From a virus (taxonomy: Duplodnaviria > Heunggongvirae > Uroviricota > Caudoviricetes), in IMG/VR virus record IMGVR_UViG_2537561945_000005, positions 1-50,588 of that record: a DNA stretch of 50,588 bases. The stretch is one strand, 5' to 3'. The position numbers were made by a program, and so were the translations under genes. Positions 27,024 to 34,926 of the stretch are shown in pieces; position 1 is the stretch's first letter; every line of letters starts with the position of its first letter. The notes under the pieces were generated by a model that ran no database searches, had not been told where the DNA came from, and was given only the letters and a program-made list of their open reading frames with translations.

Positions 27024-27580
27024 AACTGACGCCTGTTATTGCTGCACTGCGTGCCCGCTGTCCGTATTTTGAAAACCGGGTTGCAGGCGCGGCCCAGTTC
27101 AAAAATCTGCCGGAGGTCGGAAAGCTGAAGCTCCCGGCGGCATATGTGGTACCGGGTGATGACTCTCCGGGAGAAAACAAAAGCCAGACCGACTACTGGC
27201 AGGAGCTGAAAGAGGGCTTCTCCGTGGTTGTCATACTGAGTAACGGGCGTGATGAGCGCGGTCAGTTTGCCTCGTATGATGTGGTGGACGATGTCCGGCA
27301 GATGCTCTTTAAGGCTCTGCTGGGCTGGAACCCGGAAGCGTGCGGTAACCCGATTACCTATGACGGCGGTACGCTGCTGGATCTGAATCGTCATGAGCTG
27401 ATTTATCAGTTCGATTTTTCGGTCATCAGCGAGCTGACTGAAGACGATACCCGCCAGCAGGATGACCTGAACAGTCTGGATGAACTGCGAACGCTGGCGA
27501 TTGATGTTGATTATCTCGATCCCGGTAACGGGCCTGACGGCGATATCGAACATCACACCGAAATAACCCTTCCTTCCTGA
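27020..27580 (+). CDS. Tail completion / neck protein
   Basis: 186 aa immediately upstream of the sheath gene. Confidence 0.5.
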   Translation: MKLTPVIAALRARCPYFENRVAGAAQFKNLPEVGKLKLPAAYVVPGDDSPGENKSQTDYWQELKEGFSVVVILSNGRDERGQFASYDVVDDVRQMLFKALLGWNPEACGNPITYDGGTLLDLNRHELIYQFDFSVISELTEDDTRQQDDLNSLDELRTLAIDVDYLDPGNGPDGDIEHHTEITLPS

Positions 27581-27588
27581 GAATCATC

Positions 27589-27759
27589 ATGTTTGTGAAA
27601 CCTGTTAAAGGGCGGTCAGTGCCTGACCCTGCCCGCGGCGACCTTTTGCCCGCCGAAGGGCGAAATGTTGACGAGAACAACTACTGGCTGCGCCGTGAAG
27701 CCGCGGGTGATATCCGGCGCGTGAATAAAAAGGTGAACACCGATGACGATAAGCTTTAA
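27589..27759 (+). CDS. Small ORF upstream of the sheath gene
   Basis: 56-aa ORF MFVKPVKGRSVPDPARGDLLPAEG... overlapping the sheath start; too short for the ORF track. Confidence 0.35.
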   Translation: MFVKPVKGRSVPDPARGDLLPAEGRNVDENNYWLRREAAGDIRRVNKKVNTDDDKL

Positions 27760-29239
27760 CACCATTCCGTCGAATACGCTGGTTCCGTTGTTTTATGCGG
27801 AAATGGATAACCAGGCGGCGAATACTGCACAGGACAGCGGAGCATCGCTGCTGATTGGTCATGCCAATAACGGTGCAGAGATTGTTGCCAACAGTCTGGT
27901 ACTGATGCCGTCGGCAGACTATGCACGCCAGATTTGTGGTGCGGGAAGTCAGCTGGCGCGTATGGTCGAGGCTTATCGCCAGACTGACCCGTTTGGCGAG
28001 CTGTATGTGATTGCCGTTCCTGAATCCACAGGCGCGGCGGCAACAGTTACGCTGACGGTGACCGGGGCAGCAACCGAAACCGGCACGGTGAATGTTTATG
28101 TGGGACGTACCCGCGTGCAGGCACCGGTGACCAACGGCGATAACGTCGCGACGATTGCCAGCAGTATCAAAGATGCCATCAATGCCGTTCCGGCCCTGCC
28201 GTTTACGGCCTCATCTTCGGCTGGTGTGGTTACACTGACCGCTCGCCATAAGGGGCTTTGCGGGAATGAAATTCCTGTCAGCCTCAATTACTACGGCTTC
28301 GGTGGGGGCGAAGTGCTGCCAGCGGGCGTACAGATTGCCGTGGCGACGGGGAACGCCGGAACGGGCGCTCCTGTTCTCACCGGCGCGGTGGCTGCAATGG
28401 CGGATGAGCCGTTTGATTATATCGGCCTGCCGTTCAACGACACGGCCTCCGTTAACACGCTGGTGACCGAGATGAACGATACCAGCGGTCGCTGGAGCTA
28501 TGCGCGTCAGCTGTATGGTCATGTGTATACGGCAAAGATCGGCACGCTGTCAGAACTGGTGACCGCAGGTGACCAGTTTAACCAGCAGCACATTACCCTG
28601 GCGGGGTACGAAAAAGACACCCAGACGCCTGCCGACGAGCTGGCGGCAAGCCGTACCGCCCGCGCAGCGGTGTTTATCCGCAACGATCCGGCACGTCCCA
28701 CGCAGACCGGTGAGCTGGTGGGTATGCTGCCTGCGCCGAAGGGGAAACGGTTCACGATGACCGAGCAGCAGACCCTGCTGTCTCATGGCGTGGCAACGGC
28801 GTATGTCGAAAGCGGGGTGCTGCGCATTCAGCGTGATGTCACCACGTACAGGAAAAATGCTTACGGGGTTGCGGATAACAGCTACCTCGACAGCGAGACG
28901 CTGCATACCAGTGCGTATGTACTGCGCAAACTGAAATCCGTCATTACCAGTAAGTACGGGCGTCACAAGCTTGCCAGCGACGGTACCCGCTTTGGTCCCG
29001 GTCAGGCGATTGTCACCCCGGCGGTAATCAAAGGGGAACTGCTGGCAACCTACCGTCAGCTTGAGCGTGCGGGGATCGTGGAAAACTACGAACTGTTTAA
29101 GCAGTACCTGGTTGTGGAGCGTGATGCCAGCGATCCGAACCGCCTGAACACGCTGTTCCCGCCTGACTATGTTAACCAGTTGCGTGTTTTTGCCGTGGTT
29201 AACCAGTTCCGTCTTCAGTATTCAGAGGAGTCTGCATAA
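27743..29239 (+). CDS. Tail sheath protein (Mu gpL type)
   Basis: 498 aa upstream of the tube/chaperone/tape-measure block; marks a contractile tail. Confidence 0.85.
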   Translation: MTISFNTIPSNTLVPLFYAEMDNQAANTAQDSGASLLIGHANNGAEIVANSLVLMPSADYARQICGAGSQLARMVEAYRQTDPFGELYVIAVPESTGAAATVTLTVTGAATETGTVNVYVGRTRVQAPVTNGDNVATIASSIKDAINAVPALPFTASSSAGVVTLTARHKGLCGNEIPVSLNYYGFGGGEVLPAGVQIAVATGNAGTGAPVLTGAVAAMADEPFDYIGLPFNDTASVNTLVTEMNDTSGRWSYARQLYGHVYTAKIGTLSELVTAGDQFNQQHITLAGYEKDTQTPADELAASRTARAAVFIRNDPARPTQTGELVGMLPAPKGKRFTMTEQQTLLSHGVATAYVESGVLRIQRDVTTYRKNAYGVADNSYLDSETLHTSAYVLRKLKSVITSKYGRHKLASDGTRFGPGQAIVTPAVIKGELLATYRQLERAGIVENYELFKQYLVVERDASDPNRLNTLFPPDYVNQLRVFAVVNQFRLQYSEESA

Positions 29240-29595
29240 TGGCCCGTATCGGGGGAACCTGTTATTTCAAAATTGACGGTCAGCAGCTATCGCTGACCGG
29301 CGGCATTGAGGTGCCCATGAACAGGACGGTCAATGATGACATCATCGGCCTGGACGGTTCAGTGGACCGCAAGGAAACTCACCGTGCGCCTTATGTCAAA
29401 GGGACCTTCAAGGTGCCGAAGAATTTTCCGGTGAGCAAAATCACCTCGTCTGATGAGATGACCATCACTGCCGAGCTGGCGAACGGTCAGGTCTATGTAT
29501 TGTCGTCCGCCTGGCTGCACGGAGAAGCGAACCATAATGCCGAAGAAGGCACGGTTGATCTTGAGTTCCACGGTGAAGAAGGGGATTACCAGTAA
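29239..29595 (+). CDS. Tail tube protein
   Basis: 118 aa; TAATG coupling to the sheath gene. Confidence 0.8.
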   Translation: MARIGGTCYFKIDGQQLSLTGGIEVPMNRTVNDDIIGLDGSVDRKETHRAPYVKGTFKVPKNFPVSKITSSDEMTITAELANGQVYVLSSAWLHGEANHNAEEGTVDLEFHGEEGDYQ

Positions 29596-29864
29596 TGAAA
29601 GAGCTTGAGTTAAAGAAACCGATTATCGCTCATGGTGAGACACTCTCCGTACTGGAGTTTGATGAACCCACCGGGAAGGATGTCCGCGAGCTGGGGTATC
29701 CCTACCAGATGAATCAGGATGAGTCCGTCAGACTTCTGGCGCATGTGGTGTCGAAATACATTGTGCGGCTGGCGAAAGTGCCGCAAAGCTCTGTCGACCA
29801 GATGTCTCCGGCAGACCTGAATGCAGCGGCGTGGCTTGTGGCTGGTTTTTTCCTCCAGGCCTGA
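29595..29864 (+). CDS. Tail assembly chaperone (short form)
   Basis: 89-aa ORF before the tape measure gene, with a downstream overlapping -1 ORF to 30013. Confidence 0.7.
   Translation: MKELELKKPIIAHGETLSVLEFDEPTGKDVRELGYPYQMNQDESVRLLAHVVSKYIVRLAKVPQSSVDQMSPADLNAAAWLVAGFFLQA
29846..29852 (+). other. Slippery heptamer TTTTTTC for -1 programmed frameshift
   Basis: Zero-frame GGT TTT TTC; a -1 slip reads PPGLTAEYLTDRFF... through to 30013, matching the 29831-30013 ORF. Confidence 0.65.
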
Positions 29865-30005
29865 CGGCTGAATACCTCACTGATCGCTTCTTTGACTGCG
29901 CCAGCTACTGGCGCATTAATCCCTTCGAATTGCTGAATATGCCGATCAGTGAAATTCCCTTGCTGGTCAGTCAGGCAAACAGGATAGAGCAGGAGAAACG
30001 CACAC

Positions 30006-31838
30006 ATGGCTGAATTTGAGCTTAAGGCGTTGATCACCGGTGTCGACAGGCTTTCTCCCGCGCTGTCGAAAATGCAAAAGAAAATCCGGGGATTTAAACG
30101 CCAGGCGGAAGAAGCGTCACAGGGTGGGCTGGCGCTTGGTGGCGGACTGGCAGCGGGTCTGACGCTTTCCCTGAAATCTTATGCTGATCAGGAAAACGCC
30201 GCCACCGGGCTGAAAGTCGCCATGATGGATGCGAACGGCGAGGTTGGAAAGAGCTTTCAGGACATCAATAAACTGGCTATTGGCCTGGGTAACCAGCTAC
30301 CCGGTACAACGGCTGATTTCCAGAACATGATGCAGATGCTGGTGCGTCAGGGGATCCCGGCAGAAAACATTCTTGGTGGTGTGGGTAAAGCGACAGCTTA
30401 TCTTGCGGTACAACTGAAAAAAACACCGGAAGCGGCTGCTGAGTTTGCCGCAAAGATGCAGGATGCTACCGGAACGGCCTCAGAAGACATGATGGGGCTG
30501 TTCGACACAATTCAGAAGGCGTTTTATCTGGGCGTGGACGATACCAACATGCTGTCATTCTTCACTAAAACCAGCTCTGTTCTGAAGATGGTGAATAAGG
30601 ACGGTCTTCAGGCTGCACAGAGTCTTGCCCCCATCAGTGTCATGATGGATCAGATGGGGATGAACGGGGAGTCGGCAGGTAATGCCCTGCGAAAAGTTAT
30701 CCAGTCCGGATTAAGCGTTAAGAAAATCAGGGACGTCAATAAAATCATGGCCCGCCAGAAACTCGGGGTACAGCTCGATTTTACTGATGGCAAAGGGAGT
30801 TTTGGCGGTCTTGATAACATGTTCAGGCAACTGGCAAAGCTGCGAAAACTGACCGACGTTAAGCGAACCGGTGTACTTAAGGCAATATTTGGTGATGATG
30901 CCGAAACCCTTCAGGTGGTCAATGCACTAATCGATAAAGGAAAGGATGGCTACGATCAGATCCAGCAGAAGATGAATAAACAGGCCAGCCTGAATAAACG
31001 TGTTCAGGCTCAGCTTGGTACGCTGTCCAACCTGTGGGAGGCAATGACGGGGACCGCAACTAACGGCCTTGCGGCTATTGGCGGCGCATTTTCTGGTGAC
31101 GCTAAGAACATCACGCAGTGGCTGGGGGAGTTGGGGGAGAAATTCACGAAGTTTGCGGATGAAAATCCCCGGGTTATTCGCGGCGTCGTCGGGCTTGCTG
31201 CCGGTCTTGCGATTCTGAAACTGGGATTGATGGGCGTGGGCAGTGCCATCAGCATTGTCAGCAGGATCATGTCGATGACGCCGATTGGCATGATTGCGAC
31301 GGCGATAGCCCTGGCTGCGGGATTAATTATCACTAACTGGGATGTTGTCGGACCTTATTTCAAGAAGCTCTGGGAAACCATTGGTCCTTATTTTGAGGCT
31401 GGCTGGGAACTCCTTAAGAAAGTTTTTGCCTGGTCGCCGCTGGGGATGGTGATCAATAACTGGGGACCGGTTGTTAAGTGGTTTCAGGATATGTGGGATA
31501 AGCTGAAGCCGATTATTGAATGGTTTACCGACAGTTCCGGTGACACGGTCGATACCATTAACTCGGCGCAGTGGGGCGCGGGTGCTTATGATGCTTATGG
31601 GACGGGAATACCGGCACGGGGATACACGCCTTATCCGGCGGTGGATCCGGCTCAGGCAAACAACGCCTCCGATGCCACAGGCTCGAATCCCTTCATGATT
31701 AATAAAGCTACCGCGCCAAAAGTTGATGGTGAGATCAAGGTATCATTTATAAATATGCCACCAGGTATGCGGGTTACGGAAACACGCTCCAGTGGCATTG
31801 ATATAAATCACGATGTTGGCTATACCCGATTTTGGTAG
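30006..31838 (+). CDS. Tail tape measure protein
   Basis: 610 aa, alpha-helical and Ala/Gly-rich with hydrophobic segments, after the chaperone frameshift pair. Confidence 0.85.
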   Translation: MAEFELKALITGVDRLSPALSKMQKKIRGFKRQAEEASQGGLALGGGLAAGLTLSLKSYADQENAATGLKVAMMDANGEVGKSFQDINKLAIGLGNQLPGTTADFQNMMQMLVRQGIPAENILGGVGKATAYLAVQLKKTPEAAAEFAAKMQDATGTASEDMMGLFDTIQKAFYLGVDDTNMLSFFTKTSSVLKMVNKDGLQAAQSLAPISVMMDQMGMNGESAGNALRKVIQSGLSVKKIRDVNKIMARQKLGVQLDFTDGKGSFGGLDNMFRQLAKLRKLTDVKRTGVLKAIFGDDAETLQVVNALIDKGKDGYDQIQQKMNKQASLNKRVQAQLGTLSNLWEAMTGTATNGLAAIGGAFSGDAKNITQWLGELGEKFTKFADENPRVIRGVVGLAAGLAILKLGLMGVGSAISIVSRIMSMTPIGMIATAIALAAGLIITNWDVVGPYFKKLWETIGPYFEAGWELLKKVFAWSPLGMVINNWGPVVKWFQDMWDKLKPIIEWFTDSSGDTVDTINSAQWGAGAYDAYGTGIPARGYTPYPAVDPAQANNASDATGSNPFMINKATAPKVDGEIKVSFINMPPGMRVTETRSSGIDINHDVGYTRFW

Positions 31839-31866
31839 CCAGGATTCCCCTCACATGTATTGCTGG

Positions 31867-31894
31867 TTGTAAGTCATAAATAGAGTGATAGAAT
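31867..31894 (+). promoter_or_regulatory. Sigma70-like promoter of the tail-module moron (TTGTAA-16-TAGAAT)
   Basis: -35 TTGTAA at 31867-31872, 16-bp spacer, -10 TAGAAT at 31889-31894, about 36 bp upstream of the moron ATG. Confidence 0.5.
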
Positions 31895-31929
31895 TAATGC
31901 ACATTTAGAAAAATGTTAATAGGCGAAAA

Positions 31930-32460
31930 ATGAAAGGCTATATCACAGCAAGTGTAATTCTTGGAGCAGCGGCTATTTTTTCATCTCTCATAATCTCTGG
32001 CAACATCTCCTTTAAAGATGAACATATTATTCAGTTATCTGGAGGAGCCATAAAACTTGGTGATGTTTATAAAGAAAATAAATTGATAAGTGCAAAGATT
32101 ATTTTTCCAGATAATCAGGGTGAACAGATTCTTGTTGTCGACGGCAATCCTGAAAACTTTAAGGAGGATTTTCAGGAGAAATTAAATAAAGTAATAAAAA
32201 CTTTAAATGCGTCAAAGAAAAAAGATGAAGAGAAAGTTAGCCTGGATAATTTAAGTGTTATTGAAGAGTCTAAACTAGAGCTCGTTTCTGCGGTGCGTTA
32301 CTCTGCTCAGTATGTTCCTATGTTTACTCTGACGCTGGACAAAAAAGAAATTACCATGCCTAAAAATACGGTAATATTTCCATTTGCCAGCGATGAAACA
32401 GCTAAGTATTTAAATGAACAACAGCAAAAGTATAAAGATTCGTTGTTTCTGACTCGCTAA
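31930..32460 (+). CDS. Moron: secreted or membrane-anchored protein of unknown function
   Basis: 176 aa with N-terminal hydrophobic segment (ITASVILGAAAIFSSLIISG), Lys/Glu-rich; AT-rich codon usage unlike flanking tail genes. Confidence 0.6.
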   Translation: MKGYITASVILGAAAIFSSLIISGNISFKDEHIIQLSGGAIKLGDVYKENKLISAKIIFPDNQGEQILVVDGNPENFKEDFQEKLNKVIKTLNASKKKDEEKVSLDNLSVIEESKLELVSAVRYSAQYVPMFTLTLDKKEITMPKNTVIFPFASDETAKYLNEQQQKYKDSLFLTR

Positions 32461-32478
32461 TTAATAAAATTCATTACA

Positions 32479-32510
32479 AGGCCACCTTCTAATAGGTGGC
32501 TTTTTTATTT
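32479..32510 (+). terminator. Rho-independent terminator of the moron
   Basis: GCCACC-TTCTAATA-GGTGGC followed by TTTTTTATTTT. Confidence 0.7.
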
Positions 32511-32521
32511 TCGGAGTGTAT

Positions 32522-33850
32522 ATGACGTGGAAAGACAGGCTTCAGGATGCGTCATTTCGAGGTGTGCCGTTTAAGGTTGAAGAAGAAAGTGCGGGAACCG
32601 GCCGTCGTGTGGAAACACACGAATATCCGAACCGCGACAAACCCTATACCGAAGATCTGGGAAAAGTCACTTTCCGCCCGTCCATCACGGCTTATGTGGT
32701 GGGAGATGACTGCTTTGACCAGCGCGATCGCCTGATTGACGCGCTGAATAAACCCGGTCCCGGCACGCTTGTCCACCCGACATACGGTGAGCTGAAAGTC
32801 TGTGTTGACGGGGAAGTTCGGGTCAGCACATCGAAGAGTGAAGGGCGTATTGTCCGCTTTGACCTGAAGTTTGTCGAAGCGGGAGATCTCTCTTACCCCA
32901 CATCAGGCGTGGCGACGGCGCAGACGCTGATGTCATCCTGTTCTGCACTGGATGACTGCATCAGTGACAGCTTCAGCGGTTTCAGTATCGATGGCGTGGC
33001 GGATTTTGTGCAGAACGACGTTATCGGTAATGCCAGCACAATGCTTGGGTATGTTTCTGATGCGATGAAAGTGGTGGATTCTGCCGTATCGGATGCCGCC
33101 AGGCTGTTGCAGGGGGATATCTCGGTACTTCTGCCGCCACCATCGTCAGGCAAAAATTTCGTTGAGCAGGTGCAGAAAATGTGGCGTACCGGGAAACGCC
33201 TTTATGGTAACGCCAGCGACCTGGTCACCATGATCAAAACGCTTTCCGGTGTCAGCCTCGGCAGCGATCTGCAACCGCGCGGCGTCTGGAAAACGGACAG
33301 TAAAACCACCGCCACGGCGACGCAGCAGCGTAACGTGGTTGCCAGCATCCTTCGTACGACCGCAATCAGCGAAGCGGCGTATGCCGTCACCCGATTGCCT
33401 GCGCCAACAACTTCCGCGGTGATGCAGAATGCCGCAGTGGGGCAGGCAACAACACCCGCGCAGAGCACTGACTGGCCTTCCGTCACGCATCCGGCACTGA
33501 ACAATGCTCCGGCGGTGAAAAGCACGGTTGACCTGCCGACGTGGGAAGAACTGACTGACATTCGCGACACACTGAATACGGCAATTGATAAGGAGTTGTC
33601 CCGTACAACCAGTGATGCGCTGTTTCTGGCGCTGCGCCGGGTGAAAGCAGATCTGAATGCGGATATCAACACGCGCCTTGAACAGTCTGCACGGATCATT
33701 CAGCGCACGCCGGATGAGGTTTTACCCGCGCTGGTGCTGGCGGCGACCTGGTTTGATAACGCGGCGCGTGATGCGGACATTATCCGGCGTAATGCCATTA
33801 CGCATCCCGGCTTTGTGCCGGTGATCCCTCTGAAGGTGCCAGTGCAATGA
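32522..33850 (+). CDS. DNA circularisation protein (Mu gpN type)
   Basis: 443 aa following the tape measure gene; GGAG RBS. Confidence 0.75.
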   Translation: MTWKDRLQDASFRGVPFKVEEESAGTGRRVETHEYPNRDKPYTEDLGKVTFRPSITAYVVGDDCFDQRDRLIDALNKPGPGTLVHPTYGELKVCVDGEVRVSTSKSEGRIVRFDLKFVEAGDLSYPTSGVATAQTLMSSCSALDDCISDSFSGFSIDGVADFVQNDVIGNASTMLGYVSDAMKVVDSAVSDAARLLQGDISVLLPPPSSGKNFVEQVQKMWRTGKRLYGNASDLVTMIKTLSGVSLGSDLQPRGVWKTDSKTTATATQQRNVVASILRTTAISEAAYAVTRLPAPTTSAVMQNAAVGQATTPAQSTDWPSVTHPALNNAPAVKSTVDLPTWEELTDIRDTLNTAIDKELSRTTSDALFLALRRVKADLNADINTRLEQSARIIQRTPDEVLPALVLAATWFDNAARDADIIRRNAITHPGFVPVIPLKVPVQ

Positions 33851-34926
33851 ACGACAATGTCACGCTACGGGTAAATGGCCGGGAGTGGAATGGCTGGACA
33901 TCGGTGCGCATCGGTGCCGGTATTGAACGGCTGGCGCGGGATTTCAGTGTGGAGATCACCCGCCAGTGGCCGGGAGATGAGGGTATTACCACGCTTCAGC
34001 CGCGCATTAAAAACGGTTCAAAAGTGGAGGTGCTGATTGGTGATGAGCTGGTGATCACCGGCTGGGTGGAGGCGACGCCCGTTCGTTACGATGCCCGTTC
34101 GGTCAGCACCGGTATTGCCGGACGCAGTCTGACCGCTGACCTGATTGACTGTGCAGCCGAACCGACACAGTTTAACGGACGATCGCTGGTACAGATTGCG
34201 CAGGCGCTTGCTGCGCCTTTCGGCATTGAGGTGGTGAACAACGGTGCGCCGTCGGGTATTATTCCTGATGTCCAGCCTGATTACGGTGAAACGGTGATTG
34301 AGGTAATCAACAAAATACTCGGTCAGCAGCAGGCACTGGCTTACGACGACCCGCACGGCAGGCTGGTGATTGGCGGTATTGGCTCAACGCGGGCACATAC
34401 TGCGCTGGTACTCGGGGAAAACATCCTTTCCTGCGATACGGAGAAGAGTATCCGGGAGCGGTTTTCTGTTTACCAGGTGGCGGGGCAGCGTGCCGGAAAC
34501 GACGATGATTTCGGTGAGGCCACCACCACCGCGCTGCGGGCCCGCACAGAGGACGCATTTATTGCCCGTTACCGTCCGATGTATATCAGGCAGACAGGGC
34601 AGGCTACGGGGGCAGGCTGTATTGCCCGTGCGGACTTTGAAGCCCGACAACGGGCGGCGCGGACGGATGAAACCACCTATGTGGTGCAGGGCTGGCGACA
34701 GGGTAATGGTACGCTGTGGCAGCCCAACCAGCGGGTGATTGTCTTTGATCCGGTCTGTGGTTTCGACAATACCGAACTGCTTGTTTCGGAAGTCACGTTT
34801 ACTCAGGACCAGAACGGCACTCTGACGGAAATCCGTGTCGGCCCACCTGATGCTTATCTGCCTGAACCCGAAGCCCCCGGCGCGCGGAAAAAGAAAAAAG
34901 CCAGAGTACAGGAGGACCCGTTCTGA
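33847..34926 (+). CDS. Baseplate hub protein (Mu gpP / gp44 type)
   Basis: 359 aa in the Mu baseplate gene order. Confidence 0.78.
   Translation: MNDNVTLRVNGREWNGWTSVRIGAGIERLARDFSVEITRQWPGDEGITTLQPRIKNGSKVEVLIGDELVITGWVEATPVRYDARSVSTGIAGRSLTADLIDCAAEPTQFNGRSLVQIAQALAAPFGIEVVNNGAPSGIIPDVQPDYGETVIEVINKILGQQQALAYDDPHGRLVIGGIGSTRAHTALVLGENILSCDTEKSIRERFSVYQVAGQRAGNDDDFGEATTTALRARTEDAFIARYRPMYIRQTGQATGAGCIARADFEARQRAARTDETTYVVQGWRQGNGTLWQPNQRVIVFDPVCGFDNTELLVSEVTFTQDQNGTLTEIRVGPPDAYLPEPEAPGARKKKKARVQEDPF

What the first reader, a model, noticed from the sequence alone, without database searches (positions are those of the whole stretch)
29595..30013. -1 programmed frameshift in the tail assembly chaperone at TTTTTTC
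The chaperone ORF ends shortly after a textbook X XXY YYZ heptamer (T TTT TTC at 29846-29852), and the -1 frame continues for another 54 codons to overlap the tape measure start. This is the conserved G/GT-type recoding signal and should be annotated as a fusion product rather than two separate ORFs.
Basis: partly seen in the sequence, partly recalled or inferred. Interest (0 to 1): 0.4.

Follow-up and report, generated by a model that had tools for sequence, protein, structure and literature searches.

The report
Tail chaperone -1 frameshift, confirmed
A prophage tail-assembly gene carries a slippery TTTTTTC at which some ribosomes probably slip back one base to make a longer second protein; this is the well-known trick of phages lambda and P2, found here in a copy that public databases have not annotated.

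Summary
T_TTT_TTC lies at 29846-29852, in phase with the 89-codon chaperone ORF (29595-29864). The -1 frame runs 53 more sense codons to a TGA at 30011-30013, overlapping the tape-measure ATG (30006) by 8 nt.

The window is an SfV/SfII-type E. coli prophage with a Mu-like contractile tail: sheath, tube, chaperone, tape measure.

The heptamer pattern alone is weak evidence, since 5 of 124 ORFs in the window pass the same mechanical test. Comparison decides it:
- Of 25 non-redundant relatives (28-100% identity), 24 keep T_TTT_TTN at the same codons. One has G_GGT_TTT 3 nt upstream.
- The codon before the heptamer encodes six different amino acids in the 25 (seven over all copies tabulated) but always ends in T.
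- The extension is under purifying selection only in the -1 frame (pN/pS 0.28 versus about 1.2).
- 21 of 25 have no start codon from which the extension could be made on its own.

A profile comparison aligns the slip site with that of phage P2 E/E+E', where the frameshift is experimentally established.

Verdict: a real, ordinary programmed -1 frameshift. It is unannotated in RefSeq and GenBank, and PHROGs files the extension as "unknown function". No conserved stimulatory RNA structure was found. A codon-invariant hairpin 45 nt downstream is unexplained.

The parts
27743..29239 (+). Tail sheath gene (498 aa), Mu gpL-like. First gene of the tail module; context only.
   Evidence: Pfam PF04984, PF17482 and PF17481. 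phrog_165 tail sheath, E 1.5e-231.
29239..29595 (+). Tail tube gene (118 aa), Mu gpM-like. Its stop TAA overlaps the chaperone ATG by 1 nt (TAATG). It is the presumed binding partner of the -1-frame domain.
   Evidence: Pfam PF10618 Tail_tube, E 2.4e-33. Sequence read. The partner role is inferred from lambda gpGT-gpV, as summarised in PMC5009743.
29595..29864 (+). Zero-frame tail assembly chaperone ORF (89 aa), the G/E-like product. AAGGGGA at 29579-29585 is a likely ribosome-binding site.
   Evidence: PF10109 Phage_TAC_7, E 2.4e-15. RefSeq calls it 'phage tail assembly protein' WP_000661047.1.
29846..29852 (+). Slippery heptamer T_TTT_TTC. tRNA-Phe on UUU (P site) and UUC (A site) can re-pair one base back on UUU UUU.
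   Evidence: Phase checked. In 24 of 25 non-redundant relatives the same codon pair is T_TTT_TTN; the third base of the preceding codon and the first Phe codon TTT are invariant. All 80 IMG/VR loci with an identical protein (26 nucleotide haplotypes) keep it.
29852..30013 (+). -1-frame extension, the T/E'-like domain: 53 sense codons plus TGA. It is reachable only by shifting from the chaperone frame.
   Evidence: pN/pS is 0.28 in the -1 frame against 1.23 and 1.15 in the other two frames. No SD-preceded start in 25 of 25 relatives and no start codon at all in 21 of 25. Conserved protein motif A-x-[FY]-W-[RK]-x-N-P...A-x-R-I. Aligns with P2 E'. phrog_32181, E 2.3e-41.
29595..30013 (+). Predicted frameshift fusion product, join(29595..29852,29852..30013), 139 aa, with junction ...AAWLVAGFF|PPGLTAEYLTDR...
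   Evidence: Constructed. tblastn with it gives two-piece, two-frame matches in divergent phages.
30006..31838 (+). Tape measure protein gene (610 aa). It has its own Shine-Dalgarno AGGAG at 29991-29995, inside the end of the -1 extension.
   Evidence: PF10145 PhageMin_Tail, E 1.3e-26. phrog_28 and phrog_17727 tape measure. Sequence read.
29897..29915 (+). Hairpin U-GCGCCAG-CUA-CUGGCGC-A, 45 nt 3' of the heptamer. It is under nucleotide-level constraint in the window's subgroup. Whether it belongs to the recoding signal is unknown.
   Evidence: Predicted. All four degenerate stem codons are codon-invariant in 13 relatives while the loop codon varies; background invariance is 4/59. It is a single occurrence in the window.

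Best explanation
This is a programmed -1 ribosomal frameshift in the tail assembly chaperone gene of an SfV/SfII-type prophage with a Mu-like contractile tail.

How it works:
1. Ribosomes start at ATG 29595.
2. Most read through GGU UUU UUC CUC CAG GCC UGA and release an 89-aa chaperone.
3. A minority slip while tRNA-Phe occupies UUU in the P site and UUC in the A site. Both tRNAs move back one base onto U UUU UU.
4. Decoding resumes at CCU (29852) and adds 53 residues, ending at UGA 30011-30013. This gives a 139-aa fusion.

By analogy with lambda G/GT and P2 E/E+E':
- the shared N-terminal domain coats the tape measure protein, which is encoded immediately downstream;
- the -1-frame domain recruits the tail tube protein, which is encoded immediately upstream;
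- the fixed low ratio of long to short product is needed for correct tail assembly;
- neither protein stays in the virion.

Shown here by computation: the ORF geometry, conservation of the slip site, coding constraint in the -1 frame, the lack of an independent start, and homology to P2 E/E+E' with aligned slip sites.

Inferred, not shown: that the shift is ribosomal, its efficiency, and the binding partners.
For: Geometry.

Gene order sheath-tube-chaperone-tape measure, with Pfam hits.

The same architecture appears in 11 divergent phages: SfV, EPP-1, AH07, SfIV, ST64B, phiP27, BgVeeders33, DVM-2008, PG1, PBb002 and YeP1. Each has an in-phase T-rich heptamer and a -1 extension of 50-63 aa ending within -3 to +10 nt of the tape-measure start.

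In 25 non-redundant (<90% identity) relatives:
- 24 have T_TTT_TTN and 1 has G_GGT_TTT;
- the codon before the heptamer encodes six different amino acids (G, P, N, R, S or D; a V/GTT copy lies in the wider set) yet always ends in T;
- the first Phe codon is always TTT, including in GC-rich Burkholderia, Pseudomonas and Bordetella phages;
- only 3 of 137 codon columns have an invariant third base.

The zero-frame tail after the heptamer varies from 3 to 26 codons and is not conserved.

pN/pS for the extension is 0.28 in the -1 frame against 1.23 and 1.15 in the other frames. In a second subgroup it is 0.36 against 1.12 and 1.38.

No usable start in the -1 frame.

P2 E/E+E' is annotated with an experimentally based -1 shift site. 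It reads GGT TTT TTG, gives 91- and 142-aa products, and overlaps gene T by 8 nt, the same as here. hhalign gives 94.6% and E 6.7e-8 and aligns VAGFF with VVGFL.

U_UUU_UUC and U_UUU_UUU are measured -1 shifters in E. coli: 0.12% and 0.33% without a stimulator, 7.6% and 10.2% with the IS3 pseudoknot (Sharma et al. 2014, PMC4066793, Table S3).

The G/GT-type shift is described as widely conserved in long-tailed dsDNA phages (PMC5009743; PMC3091744).
Against: - No experimental data exist for this gene.
- No stimulatory element conserved across the family was found. Downstream 60-nt folds have mean z -0.58. SD-like sequence upstream occurs in only 2 of 25.
- The bare heptamer gave only about 0.1% shifting in a reporter, so either the efficiency is low or an unrecognised stimulator exists.
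- The fusion peptide would be identical if RNA polymerase inserted one U in the run, so sequence analysis alone cannot fully separate the two mechanisms.
- The mechanical pattern has a background of about 4% among ORFs in this window.
Confidence: 0.9

Rival explanations
1. Transcriptional slippage. RNA polymerase adds one extra U while copying the T6 run. A fraction of mRNAs then encode the same 139-aa fusion in a single frame, and the ribosome does not shift.
For: The site is a homopolymer run: T6 here, T7 in the SfIV-like subgroup and T8 in one copy. The resulting protein would be identical. Sharma et al. note that UUUUUUU is under-represented in all three frames in E. coli, possibly because of transcriptional slippage.
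Against: - What is conserved is the phase T_TTT_TTN, not run length. The seventh base is free (C, T or G), while the base before the first Phe codon is fixed as T across seven different preceding codons (GGT, CCT, AAT, CGT, AGT, GTT, GAT).
- One relative has only a T4 run but a valid G_GGT_TTT heptamer (L125).
- From my own knowledge, not tested here: efficient slippage by E. coli RNA polymerase usually needs runs of about 8-9 or more.
- The homologous P2 site is annotated as a translational frameshift.
Confidence: 0.05
2. The -1 ORF is an independent small gene, translated from its own start (GTG 29831 in the window) as a 60-aa protein. This is how one phage record and PHROGs treat it.
For: the ORF listing reports a 60-aa ORF at 29831-30013 starting at GTG. 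vB_EcoM-689R6 annotates it as a hypothetical protein. phrog_32181 is a family of such calls.
Against: - In 21 of 25 non-redundant relatives there is no ATG, GTG or TTG in the -1 frame between the last upstream stop and the heptamer.
- None of the four candidate starts has a Shine-Dalgarno sequence.
- Protein-level conservation begins right at the heptamer.
- The heptamer itself is conserved at synonymous sites, which an independent gene would not require.
Confidence: 0.02
3. There is no recoding. Either the heptamer and open -1 frame are coincidental, or one ancestral gene was split by a frameshift mutation or a sequencing error in the homopolymer.
For: The mechanical pattern occurs in 5 of 124 ORFs in the window. 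Database proteins of 137-139 aa that look like hard-wired fusions exist (P0001-P0003).
Against: - The two-frame arrangement is kept in 25 divergent lineages from Enterobacterales, Burkholderia, Pseudomonas, Bordetella and an alphaproteobacterium. It is also kept in 80 IMG/VR loci with 26 haplotypes.
- The sequence is 100% identical in several independently sequenced complete E. coli genomes.
- The apparently fused database proteins carry several other indels and are noisy assemblies.
- The -1 frame shows purifying selection.
Confidence: 0.02

Closest known systems
Phage P2 gpE / gpE+E' (FETUD tail operon; Christie et al. 2002, cited through PMC3091744 and the NC_001895 annotation)
   Same: - Homologous N-terminal domain: both match Pfam PF10109.
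- Profile alignment covers both domains and puts the slip-site codons in register.
- Same local sequence, GGT TTT TTN.
- Same product sizes: 89 and 139 aa here, 91 and 142 aa in P2.
- Same 8-nt overlap of the extension with the tape-measure start.
- Same position between the tube and tape-measure genes of a contractile tail.
- No obvious downstream hairpin in P2 either (PMC3091744).
   Different: - Z is C here and G in P2.
- Only about 21% identity.
- The -1 domain does not reach Pfam PF06528 (Phage_P2_GpE) even at E <= 1 and sits in a different PHROG labelled 'unknown function'.
- The surrounding tail genes are Mu-like, not P2-like.
- The zero-frame tail after the slip site is 3 codons here and 6 in P2.
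Phage lambda gpG / gpGT (Levin et al. 1993; Xu et al. 2004, 2013, 2014, as summarised in PMC5009743)
   Same: - Same logic: two products with a common N-terminus from a -1 shift near the end of the chaperone gene, located just upstream of the tape measure gene.
- Same expected function: G binds the tape measure, T binds the tube or major tail protein, and a low fixed ratio is required.
   Different: - Lambda uses G_GGA_AAG with tRNA-Gly and tRNA-Lys.
- Lambda has a non-contractile tail.
- No lambda record appears among the 34 phage records matched by the fusion in tblastn at E <= 0.01, and a lambda family does not appear among the Pfam hits.
Phage Mu gp41 (Mup41) tail assembly chaperone
   Same: The neighbouring genes are Mu homologues: sheath L, tube M, tape measure gp42 and the DNA-circulation N protein. 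Mu gp41 falls just short of PF10109, scoring 24.7 bits against a cut-off of 25.
   Different: - Mu gp41 is 144 aa and belongs to its own family, PF23746.
- It has no in-phase X_XXY_YYZ heptamer.
- It is reported to use a -2 shift (Xu et al. 2004, as cited in PMC5009743).

So the window has a Mu-like tail but a P2-like chaperone recoding site.

Membership tests
Conserved tail-assembly-chaperone frameshift (lambda G/GT, P2 E/E+E' type; Xu, Hendrix & Duda 2004) | The gene lies between the major tail or tube gene and the tape measure gene. | tested here: met
   Tube 29239-29595, chaperone 29595-29864, tape measure 30006-31838.
Conserved tail-assembly-chaperone frameshift (lambda G/GT, P2 E/E+E' type; Xu, Hendrix & Duda 2004) | A second ORF in another frame overlaps the 3' end of the chaperone ORF, fills the gap to the tape measure gene, and has no start of its own. 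| tested here: met
   The -1 frame is open from 29852 to 30013. There is no SD-preceded start in 25 of 25 relatives and no start codon in 21 of 25.
Conserved tail-assembly-chaperone frameshift (lambda G/GT, P2 E/E+E' type; Xu, Hendrix & Duda 2004) | An in-phase slippery sequence in the overlap, conserved among relatives beyond what the amino-acid sequence requires. | tested here: met
   T_TTT_TTC at 29846-29852. T_TTT_TTN in 24 of 25 relatives and G_GGT_TTT in 1. The synonymous positions are invariant.
Conserved tail-assembly-chaperone frameshift (lambda G/GT, P2 E/E+E' type; Xu, Hendrix & Duda 2004) | The extension is a real coding sequence in the shifted frame. | tested here: met
   pN/pS is 0.28 in the -1 frame and about 1.2 in the other frames. 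Conserved motifs are shown.
Conserved tail-assembly-chaperone frameshift (lambda G/GT, P2 E/E+E' type; Xu, Hendrix & Duda 2004) | Both the short and the long product are made in vivo at a fixed ratio and both are needed for tail assembly. Neither is in the virion. | not testable with these tools
   This needs a reporter assay, mass spectrometry and phage genetics. No published data were found for SfV-type phages.
P2 gpE/gpE+E' homologues (Pfam PF10109 plus PF06528) | The N-terminal domain matches PF10109 Phage_TAC_7 above the gathering threshold. | tested here: met
   56.7 bits against a cut-off of 25.
P2 gpE/gpE+E' homologues (Pfam PF10109 plus PF06528) | The C-terminal -1 domain matches PF06528 Phage_P2_GpE. 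| tested here: not met
   No hit at E <= 1 for the window fusion. Homology of this domain to P2 E' appears only in the profile-profile alignment (ASYWRINPFEL against AVIFHWPPSEL). It is therefore a distant relative, not a member of the Pfam family as currently defined.
P2 gpE/gpE+E' homologues (Pfam PF10109 plus PF06528) | The slip site is at the homologous codons. | tested here: met
   hhalign aligns window residues 82-86 (VAGFF) with P2 VVGFL. Both are encoded by GGT TTT TTN.

The most novel reading that the evidence does not exclude
The bare U_UUU_UUC heptamer shifts only about 0.1% in E. coli reporters, and no canonical stimulator sits 5-9 nt downstream. The codon-invariant 8-bp hairpin 45 nt downstream (29897-29915) might therefore be an unconventional distal modulator of the shift. 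For example, it could stall a leading ribosome so that a trailing ribosome queues near the slip site. Alternatively it could be an unrelated RNA- or DNA-level signal embedded in the T domain.
Probability: 0.07. Interest if true: 0.5.

Novelty: new member of a known kind. Interest (0 to 1): 0.2.

Why it matters
The value is mainly in annotation.

- This prophage tail module matches in 1089 of 5426 complete E. coli genomes, and 895 carry at least 80% of the query. It also occurs in the Shigella serotype-converting phages SfI, SfII and SfV.
- No record of this family opened here for annotation — nine phage GenBank records (SfV, SfIV, ST64B, phiP27 among them) and one RefSeq E. coli chromosome — carries the joined CDS, so an essential tail-assembly protein is missing from their proteomes. 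SfI and SfII were seen only as feature names in search tables.
- The -1 domain is filed in PHROGs as a stand-alone family of unknown function (phrog_32181).
- Recognising it assigns a function to that family and links the Mu-like-tail phages of the SfV/ST64B/phiP27 group to the P2 type of chaperone recoding. Mu itself is reported to use a -2 shift.

Biologically it is a further instance of a textbook mechanism and is not a surprise.

Tried and rejected
1. Long-range stem GCCUGAC (29859-29865) with GUCAGGC (29968-29974). It starts 6 nt after the heptamer and appears in the 161-nt fold. I rejected it as a stimulator. Duplex energy versus shuffles is z -1.1 in the window and averages -0.18 over 25 relatives, and the alignment fold has no covariation term.

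2. A generic downstream hairpin within 60 nt. Mean z is -0.58, the window itself is +0.20, and only the Burkholderia (-3.7) and one Pseudomonas subgroup (-2.8) stand out.

3. Upstream SD-like stimulator: present in 2 of 25.

4. Database proteins that look like hard-wired fusions (P0001-P0006): these are noisy assemblies with multiple indels.

5. AlphaFold2 on the fusion as a single sequence gave pLDDT 46, which is unusable, so no fold search was run.

6. PDB sequence search with the family profile found nothing significant.

7. Rfam scan of 29500-30100 found nothing near threshold.

8. NCBIfam has no model for either this fusion or P2 E+E'.

A viral-contig scan seeded with the Bordetella phage protein found nothing. 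The first viral-contig scan returned only 100%-identical proteins.

10. Christie et al. 2002 (PMC135442) is not in the held library, and Xu et al. 2004 could not be read. I therefore could not check whether SfV, P27 or ST64B were already listed there.
Full report
**What is in the sequence**

The window was read at 29300-30300 and ORFs were listed for 27500-34000. The layout is:
- An 89-codon ORF starts at ATG 29595, overlapping the stop of the upstream gene as TAATG, and ends at TGA 29862-29864.
- TTTTTTC occupies 29846-29852. The zero-frame codons are GGT TTT TTC, so the heptamer is in the X_XXY_YYZ phase.
- After a -1 slip the next codon is CCT at 29852. The -1 frame stays open for 53 sense codons and stops at TGA 30011-30013.
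- That stop lies 8 nt inside the next gene, whose ATG is at 30006 and is preceded by AGGAG at 29991-29995.
- The predicted fusion is 139 aa with junction ...AAWLVAGFF|PPGLTAEYLTDR....

Its '54 codons' counts the stop.

**Context**

Pfam and PHROG scans give this gene order:
- tail sheath, 27743-29239;
- tail tube, 29239-29595 (PF10618);
- tail assembly chaperone, 29595-29864 (PF10109 Phage_TAC_7, E 2.4e-15);
- tape measure, 30006-31838 (PF10145);
- an AT-rich ORF of unknown function;
- a Mu gp43-like DNA-circulation/baseplate hub protein.

The stretch is 100% identical to a prophage of E. coli ETEC H10407 and 98.9-99.7% identical to phages SfV, SfI, SfII and vB_EcoM-689R6. It matches in 1089 of 5426 complete E. 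coli genomes, 895 of which carry at least 80% of the query.

No record of this family opened here annotates a joined CDS. RefSeq and SfV leave 141 nt blank between the chaperone and the tape measure. One phage record calls the -1 ORF a separate hypothetical protein.

**Is it more than chance?**

The heptamer alone is not. The + strand has 268 X XXY YYZ heptamers. The rule 'in-phase heptamer in the last 30 codons plus a -1 extension of at least 40 codons past the stop' is satisfied by 5 of 124 mechanical ORFs in the window. Most of these are spurious ORFs that overlap real genes. The case therefore rests on context and comparison.

**Comparative evidence: phages**

A tblastn search of phage genomes with the fused protein gave two-piece matches in divergent phages. 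I fetched 11 of them, plus Mu and P2.

SfV, EPP-1, AH07, SfIV, ST64B, phiP27, BgVeeders33, DVM-2008, PG1, PBb002 and YeP1 are 28-76% identical to the window fusion apart from SfV. In every one of them:
- there is an in-phase TTTTTTC, TTTTTTT or TTTTTTG at the homologous codon pair;
- the -1 extension is 50-63 aa;
- the extension ends within -3 to +10 nt of the tape-measure start.

**Comparative evidence: genomes and viral contigs**

A scan of one genome per species added 36 loci. Two viral-contig scans added 20 more. After removing redundancy at 90% identity, 25 fused homologues remain.
- 24 have T_TTT_TTN.
- One, from an alphaproteobacterial MAG, has only a T4 run but a valid G_GGT_TTT heptamer 3 nt upstream.
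- Over all copies tabulated the codon preceding the heptamer is GGT, CCT, AAT, CGT, AGT, GTT or GAT. That is seven amino acids (six among the 25), and the codon always ends in T.
- The first Phe codon is always TTT, even in GC-rich hosts.
- The last base of the heptamer is free (C, T or G), and the residue there is Phe or Leu.
- Across the 137 well-populated codon columns the mean major-allele frequency at third positions is 0.50. Only three columns have an invariant third base, and two of them are these slip-site codons.
- The zero-frame tail after the heptamer ranges from 3 to 26 codons and is not conserved.

**The extension is coding, in the -1 frame, with no start of its own**

Among 14 window-like sequences that align without gaps:
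- variable sites fall 29, 19 and 42 on -1-frame codon positions 1, 2 and 3;
- pN/pS is 0.28 in the -1 frame, against 1.23 and 1.15 in the other two frames.

A second subgroup of 12 sequences gives 0.36 against 1.12 and 1.38.

The protein alignment shows a conserved motif, A-x-[FY]-W-[RK]-x-N-P...A-x-R-I.

In 21 of 25 relatives there is no ATG, GTG or TTG in the -1 frame between the last upstream stop and the heptamer. None of the four candidate starts is preceded by a Shine-Dalgarno sequence. The domain can therefore be expressed only by a shift from the chaperone frame.

**Relation to known systems**

The P2 record annotates E (91 aa) and E+E' (142 aa, joined CDS, 'site of -1 translational frameshift').
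- The P2 site reads GGT TTT TTG.
- The E' frame overlaps the tape-measure gene T by 8 nt, exactly as here.
- Both N-terminal domains match PF10109.
- A profile-profile comparison of the 11-sequence alignment with P2 E+E' gives probability 94.6% and E 6.7e-8 over 118 columns spanning both domains. It aligns VAGFF with VVGFL and ASYWRINPFEL with AVIFHWPPSEL.
- The window's -1 domain does not reach Pfam PF06528 (Phage_P2_GpE). In PHROGs it is phrog_32181, 'unknown function', whereas P2 E' is in phrog_1756 and phrog_6416, 'tail protein'.

Mu has homologous sheath, tube and tape-measure genes, but its chaperone is different:
- gp41 is 144 aa and belongs to PF23746;
- it has no in-phase heptamer;
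- it is reported to use a -2 shift (Xu et al. 2004, as cited in PMC5009743).

The review PMC5009743 summarises the lambda mechanism. G and GT bind the tape measure, the T domain recruits the major tail protein, a ratio of about 30:1 is required, and neither protein is in virions. It also states that the shift is widely conserved and 2-3-fold more efficient in P2-like phages.

**Mechanism and open points**

From my own knowledge, E. coli has one tRNA-Phe (anticodon GAA), which reads both UUU and UUC. After a -1 slip both tRNAs would therefore still be paired on UUU UUU.

Sharma et al. 2014 measured -1 shifting on these heptamers in E. coli (PMC4066793, Table S3):

| Heptamer | No stimulator | IS911 stimulator | IS3 pseudoknot |
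|---|---|---|---|
| U_UUU_UUC | 0.12% | 0.89% | 7.6% |
| U_UUU_UUU | 0.33% | 0.45% | 10.2% |
| U_UUU_UUG | 0.12% | 0.25% | 0.77% |

I looked for stimulators and found none conserved across the family:
- downstream 60-nt folds have mean z -0.58, and the window itself has z +0.20;
- the long-range stem seen in the 161-nt fold is not better than shuffles;
- upstream SD-like sequences occur in 2 of 25.

This matches what is reported for P2 (PMC3091744). The efficiency here is therefore unknown. It may be low, or it may depend on an unrecognised element.

Transcriptional slippage on the T run would give the same protein. It is disfavoured because phase rather than run length is conserved, and because of the G_GGT_TTT variant. 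It is not excluded.

**Side observation: a constrained hairpin**

An 8-bp hairpin, U-GCGCCAG-CUA-CUGGCGC-A, lies at 29897-29915, 45 nt past the slip site.
- In 13 window-like relatives, 68 degenerate codon columns have an invariant amino acid. Only 13 of these have an invariant codon.
- Four of the 13 are the slip site (GGT TTT TTC CCT). Four are the stem codons of this hairpin (TGC, GCC, TAC, CGC), while its loop codon varies. One is the overlap with the tape-measure start.
- The background is 4/59. Four out of four by chance is therefore roughly 2e-5. That figure ignores phylogeny and the post hoc choice of the hairpin.
- The hairpin is too far away for a canonical stimulator and is not shared by the other subgroups.

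I leave it unexplained.

**Verdict**

This is a genuine instance of the conserved tail-assembly-chaperone -1 frameshift. It is unannotated in the records examined, and it is homologous to P2 E/E+E' rather than to lambda G/GT. It is an ordinary mechanism. Its value is in correcting annotation, in giving phrog_32181 a function, and in a minor open question about what sets the shift efficiency.

Noticed in passing
window 29897-29915 (+): Perfect hairpin or palindrome GCGCCAG-CTA-CTGGCGC inside the -1-frame domain. All four degenerate stem codons are codon-invariant in 13 relatives, while the loop codon varies and the background invariance is 4/59. It lies 45 nt from the slip site, too far for a canonical stimulator. 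It occurs once in the window. Function unknown.
   Followed up: partly
window 31930-32460 (+): An AT-rich (about 34% GC against about 55% in the flanks) 176-aa ORF sits between the tape measure gene and the DNA-circulation/baseplate hub gene. It matches phrog_5485 (unknown function) and has no Pfam or PADLOC hit. It looks like a moron inserted in the tail operon.
   Followed up: partly
PHROGs family phrog_32181, matching window 29831-30013: This 63-aa family of 'unknown function' is the -1-frame T domain of the chaperone, called as a stand-alone gene by automatic annotation. The label could be corrected.
   Followed up: yes
L125 1458-1464 (alphaproteobacterial MAG CAVZBG010000008.1): A distant relative replaces T_TTT_TTN with G_GGT_TTT 3 nt upstream. 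It keeps a 61-aa -1 extension with the AWFWRLNPFE motif. This is a natural swap of slippery heptamer at the same site.
   Followed up: partly
L127, L129, L130 (Pantoea bathycoeliae and Arsenophonus endosymbiont genomes): Copies in insect-endosymbiont genomes are decayed, with an altered T run, truncated chaperone ORFs and no intact extension. This is consistent with prophage erosion.
   Followed up: no
L095 1553-2131 (phage Mu gp41 to gp42 gap): Mu gp41 has no in-phase -1 heptamer. The open frame in the gap before the tape measure is the +1 frame, consistent with the published -2 shift. So phages sharing Mu-like sheath, tube and tape-measure genes use two different chaperone recoding solutions.
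   Followed up: partly
L132-L143 (Burkholderia BgVeeders33-like viral contigs), 60 nt after the heptamer: This subgroup has a strong predicted hairpin starting 8 nt after TTTTTTC (-28.3 kcal/mol, z -3.7). It is a possible subgroup-specific canonical stimulator that the E. coli subgroup lacks.
   Followed up: no
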